Source: a virus
Virus record (IMG/VR): IMGVR_UViG_3300021376_000007
Strand: one strand, 5' to 3'
DNA: 64,000 nt
The position numbers and the translations under genes are program-made. Positions 33,496-46,047 of this stretch are shown one piece after another (position 1 is the stretch's first letter; the number at the start of each line of letters is the position of its first letter). Below the pieces are notes generated by a model that saw nothing but the letters and a program-made list of their open reading frames with translations, was not told where the DNA came from and did no database searches.

Positions 33496-34119
33496 GGCAG
33501 ACCTCCTTTCTAGACTCTCGGACGCCGTCTAGTAGCGTTTGATAGACCTAACGTCTACCATTAAAGGGAAAACCACACTGGCTGTGTGGCTCCCCCTTAC
33601 TAGTGGTGGATATTGCAATCCCTGGTTATTTGCCAGGGCAGGAAAGCCGACTGGTCGACTAGAGGGTTTCGGCCTCGTCGTCGTCCAGCTCGCCCATGAG
33701 GTCAGCCAGTTCAGCCGACACCGAGAAGGATCCCTTCAAGATGTCGAGCTGCGACTCACCCTTGCTCCACACCGAGGCCTGCAGACCGTTGATGGTCTCG
33801 CCGTCCTTGATGTAGACGTTGGGCTTGACCTCGGTCACGACGAACTCGTCGCAGTTGAGGACCAGCTTCCAGTTGTTCTTCAGTGACGCCACCTTGGCCT
33901 TGGTGTAGATGGCGAGCTTCTCGGGGAAGATCTCCATCGTCACCGTGAGCCGGTCGAGGTCCGAGTCCTCCAGCCCAGTGAGGGCCTTCAGTTCGGCTCG
34001 GGGCACTCCCACGAGGACGGTGTGGAACACTCCACCGCCGTCCTTGCGGTTGTTGGCCTTGGGGACGCTGTTGATGAACAGCTTCTTCTTCATGGCAACC
34101 TCCCAGTTGTCATGTCAGG
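33462..34119. repeat. 658-bp near-identical duplication, copy 1
   Basis: matches 37329-37986 (offset 3867); only two mismatches seen, near the right end. Confidence 0.9.
33659..34093 (-). CDS. SSB/OB-fold-like protein with acidic tail (copy 1)
   Basis: 144 aa; NVYIKDGE resembles the SSB Y.KDG hairpin; tail ELDDDEAETL; very high GC3. Confidence 0.6.
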   Translation of the reverse strand: MKKKLFINSVPKANNRKDGGGVFHTVLVGVPRAELKALTGLEDSDLDRLTVTMEIFPEKLAIYTKAKVASLKNNWKLVLNCDEFVVTEVKPNVYIKDGETINGLQASVWSKGESQLDILKGSFSVSAELADLMGELDDDEAETL

Positions 34120-34342
34120 TGGACTAAGTACTGCTGTGTGCGTCCACGTTAACGCAGCAGGAAACTCATCTTCAGTTACAAGTTCAGTCCATTGGACATC
34201 CCCCTAAAGCTTGACTCTCGGTCTTGTTTCAAGTAACGACCGGGCGACTCGATATTTATACAGTACAGCCAACCCTGTAGGTGATCTAGGATCTACCCAT
34301 AAAGGGAAAACCGTGCTGGCTGCACGGTATCCCTGCTTTTAT

Positions 34343-34597
34343 CTAGCGGAACCTCCTGTCCCTGATGTTGTCCTCGTAGGTCTCGAGGATGTACATGGAG
34401 AACCGACGAAGCTCTTCCATGTCTGCCGTGAACTCGGAGCAGTTCTCGTCGAACATCCAGTTTCCGTAGTCAAAAAAGCCTTCTACGACCATGTTGATTG
34501 TCCAAAGGTAGTCTGCGACATTCTTCGGCATCTTCTTGCGGTTCTTGTACCGCTTCTGTTTTGCAGCTGTCGTTGCTGCCCCGTTTGTTGCTTTCAC
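34343..34597 (-). CDS. cassette hypothetical protein
   Basis: GTG start after GGAGG; one gene between array elements. Confidence 0.7.
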   Translation of the reverse strand: MKATNGAATTAAKQKRYKNRKKMPKNVADYLWTINMVVEGFFDYGNWMFDENCSEFTADMEELRRFSMYILETYEDNIRDRRFR

Positions 34598-34752
34598 GTT
34601 TAACCTCCGTGAATTTGGGTCAGACCTTGTGGTCTAGTTTCTACCCATAAAGAGAAAACCACGCTGGCTGCGTGGTATCTCTTAACCAATTATCACCGAT
34701 GTATAGTCGGCCTATATATAGGATGGTCAGTCCTTAGTCAAACAGAATGGCT

Positions 34753-35007
34753 TTAGGCCTTGTCGTTGCGGGACTGGATTTCGCCTGCGATCTCCAAGCA
34801 CCACTGACAGGTGGGAGGAGTGTCGCTCAGGAACTCAAGGCCGTCTGCCTCTCGCCTGTGCGGCATTTCATTCCAGAACGGAGTTGGGTTGTTCAACGCA
34901 CACACAAGTGCTGCGCTAGACATTCCACCTCCGTTGACGTAGTGGGTGTCGCCCATCCACGCAATCACCAGAAACATCGCTGTTTCCTTCCCGTTTGTTG
35001 CTTCCAC
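34753..35007 (-). CDS. cassette hypothetical protein (CQWC)
   Basis: leader and first codons nearly identical to the 34343 gene. Confidence 0.65.
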   Translation of the reverse strand: MEATNGKETAMFLVIAWMGDTHYVNGGGMSSAALVCALNNPTPFWNEMPHRREADGLEFLSDTPPTCQWCLEIAGEIQSRNDKA

Positions 35008-35137
35008 GTTTAACCTCCGTGAATTTGGGTCAGACCTTGTGGTCTAGTTTCTACCCATAAAGAGAAAACCACGCTGGCTGCGTGGTTCTCTTTTAACTAT
35101 AAAATTAGTTATACCTATGTATTTAAAATTATTATTA

Positions 35138-35371
35138 TTATTCAAACAATGTTGGCTTGTGGTACCAAGGGCAAACTGGAGTTGGTTGTTCTTTTCTGTC
35201 GTGCGTATAGATGAACTGGTAACATGCCCAGCACAAAGTCAAAACATTGGGATGTCTTGATGTAAGTGTGTCATAGTGAAACTCATAGTGATTATGATTC
35301 TTACATTCGTGACACTGCTTGTATCCTGAGTATTCCCAGTTACGACGGCTGTTTTTCTTGTTGTTCGACAT
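35138..35371 (-). CDS. small zinc-ribbon protein
   Basis: CHEC...CWAC; GAAAGG RBS. Confidence 0.6.
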   Translation of the reverse strand: MSNNKKNSRRNWEYSGYKQCHECKNHNHYEFHYDTLTSRHPNVLTLCWACYQFIYTHDRKEQPTPVCPWYHKPTLFE

Positions 35372-35400
35372 TTCTGTTTCCTTTCTGTCGTTTTAGTTTT

Positions 35401-44479: not shown

Positions 44480-44743
44480 TTAGGAGTTGAGCTTATCGTT
44501 GGCGTAGTTGATTACGCCGTCGAGACAGCTCTTCCTCTTCTCCAGTATTGCCACAGCCTCCTTCAATTGTGCTTGGCCGTAGTGGAGGAGCTCCATCAGA
44601 CCCCTCACGTGGGTCATGATGGCCTCGACATTGGCGTTTGCTTTGTCGTTGTCTGTGATTGTGAGAGCGATTTCGATCTCACGGATTTGGTTGCATTGCA
44701 GCATGATTCCTCCTGCTGTTGTGTTTTGTTTGTTTTGGGACAA
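44480..44743 (-). CDS. cassette hypothetical coiled-coil protein
   Basis: single ORF between elements; start probably MLQCN (44704). Confidence 0.65.
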   Translation of the reverse strand: MSQNKQNTTAGGIMLQCNQIREIEIALTITDNDKANANVEAIMTHVRGLMELLHYGQAQLKEAVAILEKRKSCLDGVINYANDKLNS

Positions 44744-44836
44744 AACACGTGCCTGGCCGTGTCCAGATAGTCGTCAGACTACCCATAAAGAGAAAACCCC
44801 TTTCGGGGTCTCCTCCTTTGAGCATCCTTTTTCTGC

Positions 44837-45154
44837 TCAGTTGCCTTCTGCTGATTTCATGTTGATCATGCGATCAATCCATGCTGTCGTGCAGTCTTCA
44901 CAATAGTGCGGCCAGCCATTCTTTTCCTGTGTAGAAAAACGTTCCAGAGCAATGCCTGTTCCGCACTTCACACATTTAAAAACAGTGCTGCACTTTGTGC
45001 AGGGACACTTGCTCATTGCCTCGATTTCCTCTTCGACACCCACTTTGATTGTGGGAAATCGCTCAGGATTCTTAGCAACGATCTCAACGATCTTGTGCCA
45101 GTGTTCCAGTCTGCATTTTGGTTGTGAATGTCTGTTGGGCCCTTGGGCCCCCAT
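44837..45154 (-). CDS. cassette zinc-binding protein
   Basis: CPCTKC, CVKC, CEDC. Confidence 0.65.
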   Translation of the reverse strand: MGAQGPNRHSQPKCRLEHWHKIVEIVAKNPERFPTIKVGVEEEIEAMSKCPCTKCSTVFKCVKCGTGIALERFSTQEKNGWPHYCEDCTTAWIDRMINMKSAEGN

Positions 45155-45341
45155 GACAATCTCCCTTCATGTTGGGTCTGGACTACCAAGTCCAGAGACT
45201 ACCCATAAAAGAAGAACGCCCGCATACGAGACGGGCCGCCCTTCAATACCCTTGATTGTTCAGCTTCTTTTTTTTCGCTTACTTAAACTTCTGGTGCCAG
45301 GCCAAGGATATGGCCCCGATCCAATTCAGTTGACGATCAAC

Positions 45342-45545
45342 TCACCTGTTGTTCCTGGTGAACCATCTGGATCCGAAGAACCCTATGGCCACAGCAACAC
45401 CAAGCCAGTTCACCAGGCCGAATATCGCTTGCACGATAGCTCCGGCCCAGCTCACCGCTGGAGTCAAAAGAAGAATGGCCACGAGGACCAACTCCCAGTG
45501 CTCCGCGAGGAACGCCTTGATTTGGTTCAATTCACCTCCTTTCAC
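45342..45545 (-). CDS. cassette membrane protein
   Basis: two hydrophobic helices. Confidence 0.65.
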   Translation of the reverse strand: MKGGELNQIKAFLAEHWELVLVAILLLTPAVSWAGAIVQAIFGLVNWLGVAVAIGFFGSRWFTRNNR

Positions 45546-45619
45546 AAAGGTAAATGAAGGAAGTCGTCAGACTACCCATAAAGAGAAAACCCCTTTCGGG
45601 GTCTTCTCTCCGATTTGCT

Positions 45620-45784
45620 CTAGTTCTTGTCCTTCTTGTCAGCTTCTTGGAGCCACTCTTCCTTGCACTCGACCGAGCAGTACCCCGATAGGTAGTAGTC
45701 GAAATGATTATAGTGTTGCCCACAATGGATGCACTGTGGACCGTTGTTGTTGTTAGGATGCTCATCCTGATTTAACCGCATCAT
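45620..45784 (-). CDS. 54-aa zinc-ribbon protein not in the ORF track (first cassette)
   Basis: MMRLNQ...QCIHCG...YCSVEC; fits between elements 45572 and 45837, unlike the ORF-track call 45532-45765. Confidence 0.65.
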   Translation of the reverse strand: MMRLNQDEHPNNNNGPQCIHCGQHYNHFDYYLSGYCSVECKEEWLQEADKKDKN

Positions 45785-46047
45785 ATTGTTTACCTTCTTT
45801 CTTTAGGCAGTTTGGTGTGCGTGAGTAACCGAGTGGCTACCCATAAAAAAAAGACAACAATAAGAGGGTATGGGGGGGTGGGCTCGTTAAAGTAAACCAT
45901 ACAAATACAACTTAACTATTACCCGCTCATAAATTTTCCTTATTTTTTTAACTCTTAAGATTTTTATACACCTTTATAGAGCTACGAAAATTTTTCCTAT
46001 AAATTTCCCACAACAAGTTGCCAAATCGAAAAACCTTGTGATAACGT

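What the first reader, a model, noticed from the sequence alone, without database searches (positions are those of the whole stretch)
33555..45848. 12-kb array of 24 terminator/promoter-like elements cutting the early region into one-gene cassettes and ending on a phage RNA polymerase gene
Seen: 24 same-orientation copies. On the coding (minus) strand each reads GC hairpin + TTTTCTC + TTTA(T/A)(G/T)GGTAG. It is followed by a leader (mostly about 35-110 nt, about 180-200 nt for the two SSB-like genes), an RBS and almost always one gene. The hairpin varies (several stem families) but the 11-12-nt core is nearly fixed. The most upstream copy (45837) keeps the core but has no hairpin, as expected if the hairpin only terminates the previous cassette and the core starts the next one. 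No sigma-70 -35/-10 pair fits. The last copy drives the 830-aa two-barrel polymerase, and a degenerate copy may lie at 30351. Established: N4 virion RNAP uses hairpin promoters, and T4-type phages have PeSL regulatory cassettes. Inference: this is a dedicated promoter class read by a phage-encoded, possibly virion-delivered, RdRP/YonO-like polymerase, forming a self-contained transcription and gene-capture system.
Basis: partly seen in the sequence, partly recalled or inferred. Interest (0 to 1): 0.9.

Follow-up and report, generated by a model that had tools for sequence, protein, structure and literature searches.

The report
Phage terminator-promoter cassette array
A lake-water giant phage splits its early region into 24 one-gene units with a compact stop-and-restart signal, probably read by the phage's own unusual RNA polymerases; the same signal is where gene cassettes are swapped between related phages.

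Summary
There are 24 same-strand copies of the core (0.1 expected by chance), all within 33555-45847.

Each element reads, on the minus (sense) strand:
- an RNA hairpin (23 of 24 copies);
- a 7-nt pyrimidine tract;
- TTTATGGGTAG;
- a 5' stem-loop whose 5' arm is the invariant GGUAG.

The hairpins are sense-strand RNA structures: 117 G.U pairs in sense against 8 in antisense. They fit intrinsic terminators, not N4-type DNA hairpin promoters.

The array sits in a block with 51% GC (GC3 65%) inside a roughly 35-39% GC phage of about 200 kb. It ends on an 830-aa protein whose model matches only two-barrel single-chain RNA polymerases (RDR2, QDE-1, Thermus phage gp64 and gp96).

Five related contigs and one close relative carry the same array before the same gene. 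A distant relative has its own core variant in the same architecture. Cassette content is almost entirely different between relatives, and synteny breakpoints fall inside the core, as with T4 PeSLs.

Best reading: fused terminator-promoter-leader modules of a phage RNA polymerase relay. They are probably read first by a virion-delivered paralogue, as in Thermus phage P23-45. No RNA data could be obtained, so initiation is inferred. This scan had already noted the same relay on a 202-kb relative.

The parts
33535..45855 (-). Whole array: 24 punctuating elements and about 24 cassettes; block with 51% GC and GC3 65%
45817..45855 (-). Element 1 (core 45837-45847): T-tract, core and 5' stem-loop, no hairpin
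   Evidence: the first copy is also hairpin-less in G003 and G004
45552..45611 (-). Element 2 (core 45572-45582): GAAA-loop hairpin, Y-tract, core, 5' stem-loop
45179..45244 (-). Element 3 (core 45199-45209)
44759..44818 (-). Element 4 (core 44779-44789)
44388..44449 (-). Element 5 (core 44408-44418)
44067..44126 (-). Element 6 (core 44087-44097), UUCG loop
43827..43892 (-). Element 7 (core 43847-43857)
43446..43543 (-). Element 8 (core 43466-43476), long branched hairpin
42812..42873 (-). Element 9 (core 42832-42842)
42510..42569 (-). Element 10 (core 42530-42540), UUCG loop
41910..41969 (-). Element 11 (core 41930-41940)
41224..41283 (-). Element 12 (core 41244-41254). Shares its hairpin with element 2 and its leader with element 16
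40824..40882 (-). Element 13 (core 40844-40854)
40238..40299 (-). Element 14 (core 40258-40268)
39844..39906 (-). Element 15 (core 39864-39874)
39316..39377 (-). Element 16 (core 39336-39346)
38786..38843 (-). Element 17 (core 38806-38816, variant TTTATTGGTAG)
38461..38518 (-). Element 18 (core 38481-38491, variant TTTATTGGTAG)
38116..38179 (-). Element 19 (core 38136-38146)
37402..37465 (-). Element 20 (core 37422-37432, variant TTTAATGGTAG). Identical to element 24 over about 241 nt upstream and 86 nt downstream
35031..35091 (-). Element 21 (core 35051-35061)
34621..34683 (-). Element 22 (core 34641-34651). Same 52-nt leader as element 21, different ORF
34273..34334 (-). Element 23 (core 34293-34303)
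33535..33598 (-). Element 24 (core 33555-33565, variant TTTAATGGTAG), in front of the polymerase gene
31003..33495 (-). Polymerase A: 830-aa two-barrel single-chain RNA polymerase-like protein. The likely true start is M41 at 33375; homologues are 790-800 aa
   Evidence: AF2 pLDDT 87; Foldseek QDE-1 E 1e-6; VIA Z 13.5 for RDR2, 9.2 for P23-45 gp64, 8.3 for gp96; invariant GGxDxDD and RxP; alternative start
30351..30405 (-). Terminator hairpin with a decayed core (TTTAAGCCTAG); closes the polymerase A + 140-aa unit
30422..30844 (-). 140-aa gene, paralogue (41% identity) of the two identical 144-aa cassette genes. The trio flanking the polymerase is conserved in relatives. The 'SSB-like' label is unconfirmed
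33659..34093 (-). 144-aa cassette gene (copy 1, 100% identical to 37526-37960)
37526..37960 (-). 144-aa cassette gene (copy 2)
35401..37362 (-). 653-aa PcfJ-like cassette gene. Its first 11 codons are copied from the polymerase cassette
45848..46265 (.). Conserved divergent intergenic region upstream of the first core (71% mean column identity across three phages)
17091..19652 (-). Polymerase B: 853-aa distant paralogue of polymerase A

Best explanation
Each element is a fused terminator, promoter and leader module of a phage-run transcription programme.

Shown:
- The sense-strand RNA hairpin followed directly by UUUUCUCUUUAU has the anatomy of an intrinsic terminator for the upstream cassette.
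- An 18-nt block (Y7-TTTATGGGTAG) overlaps that U-tract and is conserved far more strictly than anything around it.
- The RNA from GGGUAG onward folds into a 5'-terminal stem-loop.

Inferred:
- The 18-nt block is the promoter of a phage-encoded, non-sigma-70 RNA polymerase.
- Initiation is at one of the Gs of GGG, so each mRNA starts with a protective GGGUAG stem-loop followed by a Shine-Dalgarno sequence and one ORF.
The best candidate is a virion-delivered paralogue, the roughly 1,750-aa two-barrel-like protein encoded among giant virion-type genes in relatives. Polymerase A and then polymerase B would take over later gene classes.

Shown by comparison: the conserved core also serves as a short patch of homology at which cassettes are inserted, deleted, duplicated and re-paired. 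This makes the early region a hypervariable store of ORFan genes.
For: - 24 copies against 0.1 expected, one strand, one block.
- Over 55 distinct elements from four genomes, the hairpin 3' end is fixed at -8 and positions -7 to +10 are near-invariant (the four GTAG positions +7 to +10 were required when collecting the copies).
- The hairpin-less first copy keeps the T-tract and core in three phages. It faces a divergent intergenic region, so no co-directional gene feeds into it.
- No sigma-70 pair fits; 23 strong hairpin and U-tract sites in series argue against read-through from one upstream promoter.
- The sense fold is -19.4 against -13.8 kcal/mol antisense, more stable in 49 of 55 elements, with 117 against 8 G.U pairs and GAAA or UUCG loops.
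- The 5' leaders fold at -10.0 against -5.8 kcal/mol for shuffled tails, with stems starting at G1 or G2 of GGGUAG.
- Polymerase A has a two-barrel fold: the top 17 VIA rows are all single-chain two-barrel RNA polymerases, then a gap to Z 5.3.
- All 5 IMG/VR relatives have the array, on the gene strand, in a GC-rich block ending on the polymerase A homologue (46-59% identity). Close relative L093 has 18 copies.
- In distant relative L097 (42% identity) 9 of 10 copies share the variant core TTTTTTGAG[G/A]CTAG (one has TTTGAGGGTAG), with the same architecture and a copy in front of its polymerase.
- A third paralogue aligns to the polymerase A family with hhalign probability 87% and E 3.7e-6 over 321 columns, covering both barrel motifs. 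Its neighbours match PHROG families for a virion structural protein and a giant lysin.
- Precedent: in P23-45 the virion polymerase transcribes pre-early genes, including the non-virion polymerase gene, from 14 conserved promoters, and a conserved motif marks the terminators there (PMC10770324).
- Shuffling: synteny blocks between the window and L093 begin at -6 to -11 and end at +10 to +23 of core T1. 62% of block ends lie within an element against 13% expected. Hairpin and leader halves are re-paired independently around the core. Only 6 of 24 array cassette proteins (7 of 28 queried) have any homologue in four relatives.
Against: - A promoter and an RNA-processing site therefore cannot be separated directly.
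- The rigid spacing between hairpin and core would also suit a single RNA recognition unit.
- The virion location of the third paralogue is inferred from neighbouring genes in relatives, and the window's own genome could not be searched.
- Whether QDE-1-like phage enzymes terminate at hairpin and U-tract signals is unknown.
- The host is unknown, so a host alternative sigma factor cannot be excluded.
Confidence: 0.6

Rival explanations
1. RNA punctuation rather than promoters. The array is transcribed as one or a few long early RNAs from promoters in the 420-nt region upstream. The single-stranded UUUUCUCUUUAU linker between two hairpins is then cut by host RNase E or RNase III, or by a phage endoribonuclease. 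This leaves 3'-hairpin-protected and 5'-hairpin-protected monocistronic mRNAs, as RNase III does for T7 early RNA.
For: - Both flanking structures are sense-strand RNA hairpins.
- The linker is U-rich and unpaired at its 3' end.
- The hairpin-to-core spacing is rigid.
- Sigma-70-like sites exist upstream of the first copy (46290-46263 and 46579-46552, minus strand).
Against: - The first copy keeps the core without any hairpin in three phages.
- The 18-nt sequence is conserved far more strictly than host RNase E or RNase III sites require, and it changes with the polymerase lineage.
- 23 hairpin and U-tract signals would each have to be read through.
- No endoribonuclease gene was recognised among the cassette proteins scanned.
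Confidence: 0.15
2. The core is a promoter of the host RNA polymerase with a host sigma factor of unknown specificity (the host is unidentified). The phage polymerases act only later.
For: - Early genes of most phages are read by host RNA polymerase.
- The array has a codon usage unlike the rest of the phage, which may match the host.
- Hairpin and U-tract terminators are the host enzyme's signal.
Against: - No -35/-10 geometry fits, and the -35 position is occupied by variable hairpin sequence.
- The core is exactly conserved across phages with 46-59% identical polymerases, and replaced by a related variant in a more distant one. That is the pattern of T7, T3 and SP6-type co-evolution.
- The core is confined to one block per 200-kb genome.
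Confidence: 0.12
3. Polymerase A itself reads the cores (an autogenous loop), after a first low-level transcription by another enzyme.
For: - The array and polymerase A always travel together, and the last core drives the polymerase A gene.
Against: - An enzyme cannot start the regulon that encodes it. Polymerase A is the last of 24 terminated units, so leak-through from upstream is unlikely.
- In P23-45 the equivalent gene is read by the virion enzyme.
Confidence: 0.1
4. The elements are dedicated recombination sites (integron attC-like), or N4-type DNA hairpin promoters.
For: - One-gene cassettes in one orientation with a repeated element between them; breakpoints lie at the elements.
- Hairpins sit just upstream of a conserved word.
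Against: - The structures are strongly strand-asymmetric, with 117 against 8 G.U pairs, so they are RNA and not template-strand DNA or cruciform.
- Loops and stems vary; the first copy has no hairpin.
- The conserved part is an 18-nt non-palindromic word, not paired R/L boxes.
- No integrase was recognised among the proteins scanned.
Confidence: 0.03

Closest known systems
Thermus phage P23-45 relay: tape-measure-fused virion RNA polymerase gp96 and non-virion gp64, with their promoter and terminator motifs (Chaban et al. 2024, PMC10770324)
   Same: - Single-chain two-barrel polymerases in several paralogues per phage.
- A strongly conserved, non-sigma-70 motif in front of many small pre-early genes.
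- The gene of the next polymerase belongs to that first regulon.
- Conserved sequence at the terminators of that region.
- Polymerase A matches gp64 (Z 9.2), P74-26 gp62 (Z 9.5) and gp96 (Z 8.3) structurally.
   Different: - No detectable sequence similarity; the catalytic loop is GGxDxDD instead of DxDGD.
- Three paralogues rather than two.
- The candidate virion enzyme is a free-standing protein of about 1,750 aa, not shown to be fused to a tape measure.
- Terminator, promoter and leader are fused into one roughly 60-nt module repeated 24 times.
- The early block is GC-rich in an AT-rich genome.
- Nothing has been tested experimentally here.
PeSL (promoter-early stem-loop) composite terminator/promoter cassettes of T4-like phages (Arbiol et al. 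2010, PMC2839356; Comeau et al. 2014, PMC4122927)
   Same: - Small composite terminator/promoter motifs between ORFan genes of a hyperplastic region.
- Indels, replacements and duplications between close relatives have their junctions in the motif.
   Different: - PeSL promoters are host sigma-70 early promoters. This core has no sigma-70 geometry and travels with a phage polymerase family.
- The array is denser (24 in 12 kb) and confined to one block.
phiKZ and AR9 virion and non-virion multisubunit RNA polymerase promoters (PMC7598289, PMC7618050)
   Same: - Host-independent relay of an injected polymerase and a newly made one in jumbo phages.
- Short promoter words. The phiKZ late consensus (-3)TATG(+1) overlaps the start site, and the core here contains TATGGG. 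This is a resemblance only.
   Different: - Those enzymes are split multisubunit beta/beta' homologues; these are single chains of the QDE-1/RDR type.
- The promoters are unrelated in sequence.
N4 virion RNA polymerase hairpin promoters
   Same: - A hairpin lies a few bases upstream of the presumed start.
- Early genes are read by an injected polymerase; small genes flank the polymerase.
   Different: - Per own knowledge of the N4 literature, the N4 hairpins are template-strand DNA with 5-7-bp stems and a conserved 3-nt loop. Here the hairpins are sense-strand RNA structures with variable loops, and are dispensable in the first copy.
- The N4 enzyme is T7-like, not two-barrel.

Membership tests
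Promoter class of a phage-encoded RNA polymerase | Conserved, strand-specific word at a fixed place in front of many genes, with no host sigma-70 geometry | tested here: met
Promoter class of a phage-encoded RNA polymerase | Travels with the polymerase family in relatives and diverges with it | tested here: met
   5 of 5 IMG/VR relatives and L093 have the array and the polymerase; L097 has a variant core
Promoter class of a phage-encoded RNA polymerase | Primary (5'-triphosphate) transcript ends at a fixed offset from the word | not testable with these tools
Promoter class of a phage-encoded RNA polymerase | Specific initiation by the purified enzyme; rifampicin resistance | not testable with these tools
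   bench experiment
Intrinsic (hairpin plus U-tract) terminator | GC-rich stem followed at once by a U-rich tract, on the sense strand, after an ORF | tested here: met
   23 of 24 copies; 42 terminator-like sites against 13 expected; sense/antisense asymmetry
Intrinsic (hairpin plus U-tract) terminator | RNA 3' ends in the U-tract | not testable with these tools
   no RNA data
PeSL cassettes of T4-like phages | Composite terminator/promoter motif between ORFans, with recombination junctions in the motif | tested here: met
PeSL cassettes of T4-like phages | The promoter part is a host sigma-70 early promoter | tested here: not met
N4-type DNA hairpin promoter | Template-strand DNA hairpin with a short stem and a conserved 3-nt loop, required for recognition | tested here: not met
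   sense-strand bias and variable loops; first copy without hairpin
Integron attC cassette array | Imperfect inverted repeats with R/L boxes (GTTRRRY) and an adjacent integrase | tested here: not met
   The conserved part is an 18-nt non-palindromic word. No integrase was found among the proteins scanned; not every ORF of the window was scanned
Two-barrel single-chain RNA polymerases (QDE-1/RDR, P23-45 gp64/gp96) | Two double-psi beta-barrels in one chain | tested here: met
   AF2 pLDDT 87; Foldseek probability 1.0 for QDE-1; VIA Z 13.5 (rmsd 6.2, 566 aligned) for RDR2, and Z 8.3 to 10.3 for QDE-1, gp62, gp64 and gp96
Two-barrel single-chain RNA polymerases (QDE-1/RDR, P23-45 gp64/gp96) | Metal-binding DxDGD-type loop and basic residues of the other barrel | tested here: inconclusive
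   Invariant GGxDxDD, K158/K161/R162, R242, K251-G252 and R512-P514. The loop is a variant and its geometry was not examined
Two-barrel single-chain RNA polymerases (QDE-1/RDR, P23-45 gp64/gp96) | Template-dependent RNA synthesis | not testable with these tools
   bench experiment

The most novel reading that the evidence does not exclude
Infection is independent of host RNA polymerase and is run by three QDE-1-like single-chain polymerases in a relay.
- A virion-delivered enzyme reads the 24 fused terminator-promoter modules, possibly re-initiating directly, because the termination point and the next start would lie only a few nucleotides apart.
- The early array is written in its own codon dialect (GC3 65%, CGG read as ordinary Arg). 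Together with the CGG +1 recoding of late genes reported for this genome, this would give a combined transcriptional and translational temporal switch.
- The promoter cores double as the recombination sites of a gene-capture platform.
Probability: 0.2. Interest if true: 0.85.

Novelty: new variant of a known kind. Interest (0 to 1): 0.62.

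Why it matters
- Testable enzyme family. The polymerase family has more than 100 sequence clusters and no Pfam or PHROG model. 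Every source-given name among the listed hits is 'hypothetical protein', apart from one fused form named for its extra NADAR domain. For the best-studied single-chain two-barrel phage enzyme, YonO, the promoter is still undefined (PMC5467207). This array gives an 18-nt candidate promoter in 24 natural variants, natural terminators, and lineage-specific variants in relatives. Purified enzymes and synthetic templates can therefore test the family directly.
- Genome evolution. The array extends the PeSL idea, that regulatory signals double as recombination points for ORFan turnover, beyond T4-like phages and beyond host-type promoters.
- Host takeover. It marks about two dozen ORFan early genes per phage as likely host-takeover or anti-defence candidates.

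Tried and rejected
- Searches for polymerase A that found nothing: tblastn against 50,697 GenBank phage records, a peptide-pattern scan of IMG/VR, and a profile search of PDB sequences.
- No whole genome is held for this window, so the virion genes of this phage itself could not be examined. Relatives were used instead.
- The 3,561-aa giant protein as the virion polymerase: hhalign against the polymerase A profile gave probability below 1%, and the AF2 model of residues 1050-2000 had pLDDT 36.7 and was not used. This does not show that the region lacks a polymerase fold.
- Second promoter class: AGAAAGGCAATA and AAAAAGAAGGGA are barely above chance in the window. 10-mer counting was mostly noise, and the G003 word AGAAAGGTGGGAA is a tandem repeat at about 200 kb.
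- 'SSB-like' for the 144-aa and 140-aa proteins: no Pfam or PHROG hit. The Atlas features score was 0.75 to a Phage_SSB cluster, which is below the level of a lead.
- Rfam has no family for the elements.
- About 55 single 16-mer matches in IMG/VR are roughly what chance would give by my own rough estimate. Only contigs with several copies were treated as relatives.

Full report
**Observation**

The 11-mer CTACCMWTAAA occurs 24 times, always on the + strand, between 33555 and 45847. Shuffles give 0.10. With up to one mismatch there is no other copy in the 64-kb window.

Read on the minus strand, every copy is TTTA(T/A)(G/T)GGTAG preceded by a pyrimidine tract. In 23 of 24 copies a hairpin precedes that tract. 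Copy 43466 has a long branched hairpin. The most upstream copy (45837) has none.

Each element is followed by a leader, a strong Shine-Dalgarno sequence and, almost always, one ORF. Most leaders are 29-74 nt; those of the two identical 144-aa genes are 175 and 199 nt. Sigma-70-like pairs are not enriched, whereas terminator-like sites are (42 against 13.1 expected). The degenerate copy at 30351 exists: a UUCG-loop hairpin followed by TTTCTCTCTTTAAGCCTAG.

**Context**

The window belongs to an uncultured lake-water phage of about 200 kb, not a bacterium. recA at 47597-48682 is part of a conserved phage block of a ClpB-like gene, recA, the array and the polymerase.

The array begins a compositional island. 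The cassettes have 51% GC and GC3 65%. Long ORFs elsewhere in the window have 38-39% GC and GC3 25-31%, with a different choice of Arg codons.

**Anatomy**

I aligned 55 distinct elements from this phage and three relatives on the core.
- The last G of the hairpin is fixed at -8.
- Positions -7 to -1 are pyrimidines only.
- TTTATGGGTAG is near-invariant, although GTAG was a selection criterion.
- A weaker signal, aGRCY, follows five bases later.

The upstream purine tract (GGAGAGA) pairs with the pyrimidine tract and covaries with it. GGGGGAG goes with TTTTCCC, and AAAGAAAGG with TTCTTTCTT.

The hairpins are RNA structures of the sense strand.
- The sense fold averages -19.4 kcal/mol against -13.8 for the antisense, and is more stable in 49 of 55 elements (Wilcoxon p = 1e-9).
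- There are 117 G.U pairs in sense against 8 in antisense.
- The commonest loops are GAAA (14), AGCCA (10) and UUCG (4).

This rules out a template-strand DNA hairpin of the N4 kind and fits an intrinsic terminator.

Downstream, the RNA that would begin at GGGUAG folds into a stem-loop whose 5' arm is the invariant GGUAG. G.U pairs and UUCG or GNRA-like loops occur in several copies. Mean MFE is -10.0 against -5.8 kcal/mol for shuffled tails. The aGRCY signal is explained by the 3' arm of this stem.

**Separable functions**

The first copy of the array lacks the hairpin but keeps the T-tract and core in this phage, in G003 and in G004. It faces a 420-nt divergent intergenic region that is conserved between the three. 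No co-directional gene therefore runs into it.

The end of the last unit (polymerase A plus a 140-aa gene) shows the converse: a hairpin and U-tract with a decayed core. So the hairpin goes with the gene upstream and the core with the gene downstream.

**The gene behind the last copy**

The 830-aa product has no Pfam, PHROG or PDB-sequence match. A 48-sequence alignment shows invariant K158, K161, R162, D199-G200, R242, G248, K251-G252, GG-x-D-x-DD (483-489) and R512-x-P514.

The AF2 model has pLDDT 87.4.
- Foldseek: the first 21 ranked hits (chains of 14 PDB entries) are QDE-1, RDR2 and Thermus phage gp64 (QDE-1 E 1e-6, probability 1.0).
- VIA-align: Z 13.5 for RDR2, about 10 for QDE-1, 9.5 for P74-26 gp62, 9.2 for P23-45 gp64 and 8.3 for gp96. 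The next rows drop to Z 5.3 and are isolated double-psi barrels.

It is a single-chain two-barrel RNA polymerase homologue with a variant acidic loop. Homologues start at residue 40-41 and the first 39 residues are disordered in the model. The real start is therefore probably M41 at 33375.

**Relatives**

A 16-mer scan of IMG/VR gave about the number of single hits I estimate chance would give, but several contigs had clusters.
- In all five contigs examined (two are complete at 202 and 206 kb), the exact core occurs 6-9 times, and 12-17 times with mismatches allowed.
- In each it lies on one strand, in one GC-rich block (0.44-0.53 GC), ending just before a homologue of polymerase A at 46-59% identity.
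- With up to one mismatch only two to five scattered matches occur elsewhere in the two complete genomes, and no exact copy.
- Each of the two complete genomes and two of the three partial contigs also have the 853-aa paralogue.
- A distant relative (L097, polymerase 42% identical) has the same architecture, with a copy in front of its polymerase. Nine of its ten copies share the variant core TTTTTTGAG[G/A]CTAG and one has TTTGAGGGTAG.

A signal that is frozen within a lineage and replaced by a related word in a sister lineage is the pattern of promoters of phage-specific polymerases.

**Who reads it**

I tested it. A profile of that family (23 sequences) aligns with the polymerase A profile at hhalign probability 87% and E 3.7e-6 over 321 columns. 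The alignment covers the DG..I(S/T), R....G..KG.A, IK.E, SD.L and GG.DLDD...LR.P..F.E blocks.

In G004 this gene lies among giant ORFs. Two of them match PHROG families annotated as a virion structural protein and a giant lysin.

This parallels Thermus phage P23-45. There a virion polymerase transcribes pre-early genes, including the gene of the non-virion polymerase, from 14 conserved promoters, and terminators in that region share a 26-nt motif (PMC10770324). Assigning the core to a virion enzyme remains an inference.

**Cassette turnover**

Only 6 of the 24 array cassette proteins (7 of the 28 proteins queried, which included four downstream of the array) have any homologue in four relatives. 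These are the two 144-aa genes, polymerase A, the downstream 140-aa paralogue, the PcfJ-like protein and two small ones.

Against the close relative L093 (polymerase 94% identical), homologous blocks are whole cassettes.
- Blocks start at -6 to -11 and end at +10 to +23 relative to core T1.
- 62% of block ends fall within an element, against 13% expected.
- One cassette is single here and tandemly duplicated in L093.
- At least ten cassettes are unique to this phage, and several are unique to L093.

Within the window, hairpin halves and leader halves are re-paired independently around the core. Element 41244 has the hairpin of 45572 and the leader of 39336. Identical promoter-leader modules precede unrelated ORFs, as at 35051 and 34641.

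Elements 37422 and 33555 are identical over about 241 nt upstream and 86 nt downstream. This gives the PcfJ-like protein and the polymerase ORF the same first 11 codons.

This is the behaviour described for PeSL motifs of T4-like phages (PMC4122927), but with a non-sigma-70 core.

**Rivals**

- An RNA-processing reading (a U-rich linker between two hairpins) is the main alternative and cannot be excluded without RNA ends. Against it are the hairpin-less first copy, the strict sequence conservation and the lineage-specific variant.
- A host-sigma promoter is possible only if the unknown host has an unusual sigma factor.
- Integron-like sites and N4-like hairpin promoters are disfavoured by the strand asymmetry.

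**Verdict**

The thing is a new variant of known kinds: a phage-polymerase promoter class combined with PeSL-like shuffling.

The scan had already reported the same polymerase relay, with promoter-like motifs, on a 202-kb relative (e1-5337955, e1-5337963). New here are the RNA-level dissection of the element, the breakpoint analysis and the lineage variant.

Noticed in passing
window 26000-46000 versus the rest: Two codon dialects in one phage. The array cassettes have GC3 0.65 and use CGN and AGG for Arg, including 19 in-frame CGG codons. Long + strand ORFs outside have GC3 0.25 and use AGA for 187 of 242 Arg codons, with only 3 CGG. Relatives show the same GC-rich block.
   Followed up: partly
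window 26881-26953 (-): A tRNA-like element. It matches Rfam tmRNA at 47.3 bits (gathering score 47) over only 73 nt. It has a GGGGAUG/CAUCUCC acceptor stem, a GGUUCGAUUCC T-arm and an ACC tail. ARAGORN does not call it, and its fold energy is not better than shuffles.
   Followed up: partly
window 30891-30902, 30322-30333, 28180-28191 (-); 19696-19706 and 24267-24277 (-): Possible second signal class downstream of polymerase A: AAAAAGAAGGG followed by a small GGGAnnnnnnCCC hairpin (two exact copies). Separately, T-rich + AAGGCAATAGT lies directly upstream of polymerase B, conserved at the same place in G003 (51179) and G004 (189673). Counts in the window are barely above chance.
   Followed up: partly
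window 37329-37700 and 33462-33830 (-): A recent duplication of about 330 nt: the end of the 144-aa gene, the element, the leader and 11 codons. It gives the PcfJ-like ORF and the polymerase ORF the same N-terminus, MSDHPVPSTHY. Polymerase homologues start at M41.
   Followed up: yes
window about 45915-45932 (-): About 70 nt upstream of the first core, a core-like word TTTATGAGYGGGTAATAG and a block TTTAACGAGCCCACC...ATACC are conserved in three phages within the divergent intergenic region.
   Followed up: no
cores at window 41930 and 42530: The core contains an ATG. In two cassettes it is in frame with the long ORF. In many others it opens a 4-7-codon mini-ORF that ends at the TAG five bases after the core. 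This is probably a by-product of the stem-loop.
   Followed up: no
homologues P0111-P0114: Some distant members of the polymerase A family are about 1,400 aa long. They are fused to superfamily-1 helicase domains (PF13086, PF05970, PF13604) or to a NADAR domain (PF08719).
   Followed up: no
elements 44779, 42832, 41930, 40844, 38806, 38481: A second small hairpin that contains the stop codon of the upstream ORF (for example GAACUGAAGAAAGGCAGUUC) lies just before the terminator hairpin in several otherwise unrelated cassettes.
   Followed up: no
L089 (G004:73860-84542): The 3,561-aa giant protein of relatives matches phrog_20474 ('endolysin', E 7e-119) at residues 1184-1457. Homologues number at least 394 clusters, and some are binned as Flavobacterium or Bacteroidota.
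   Followed up: partly
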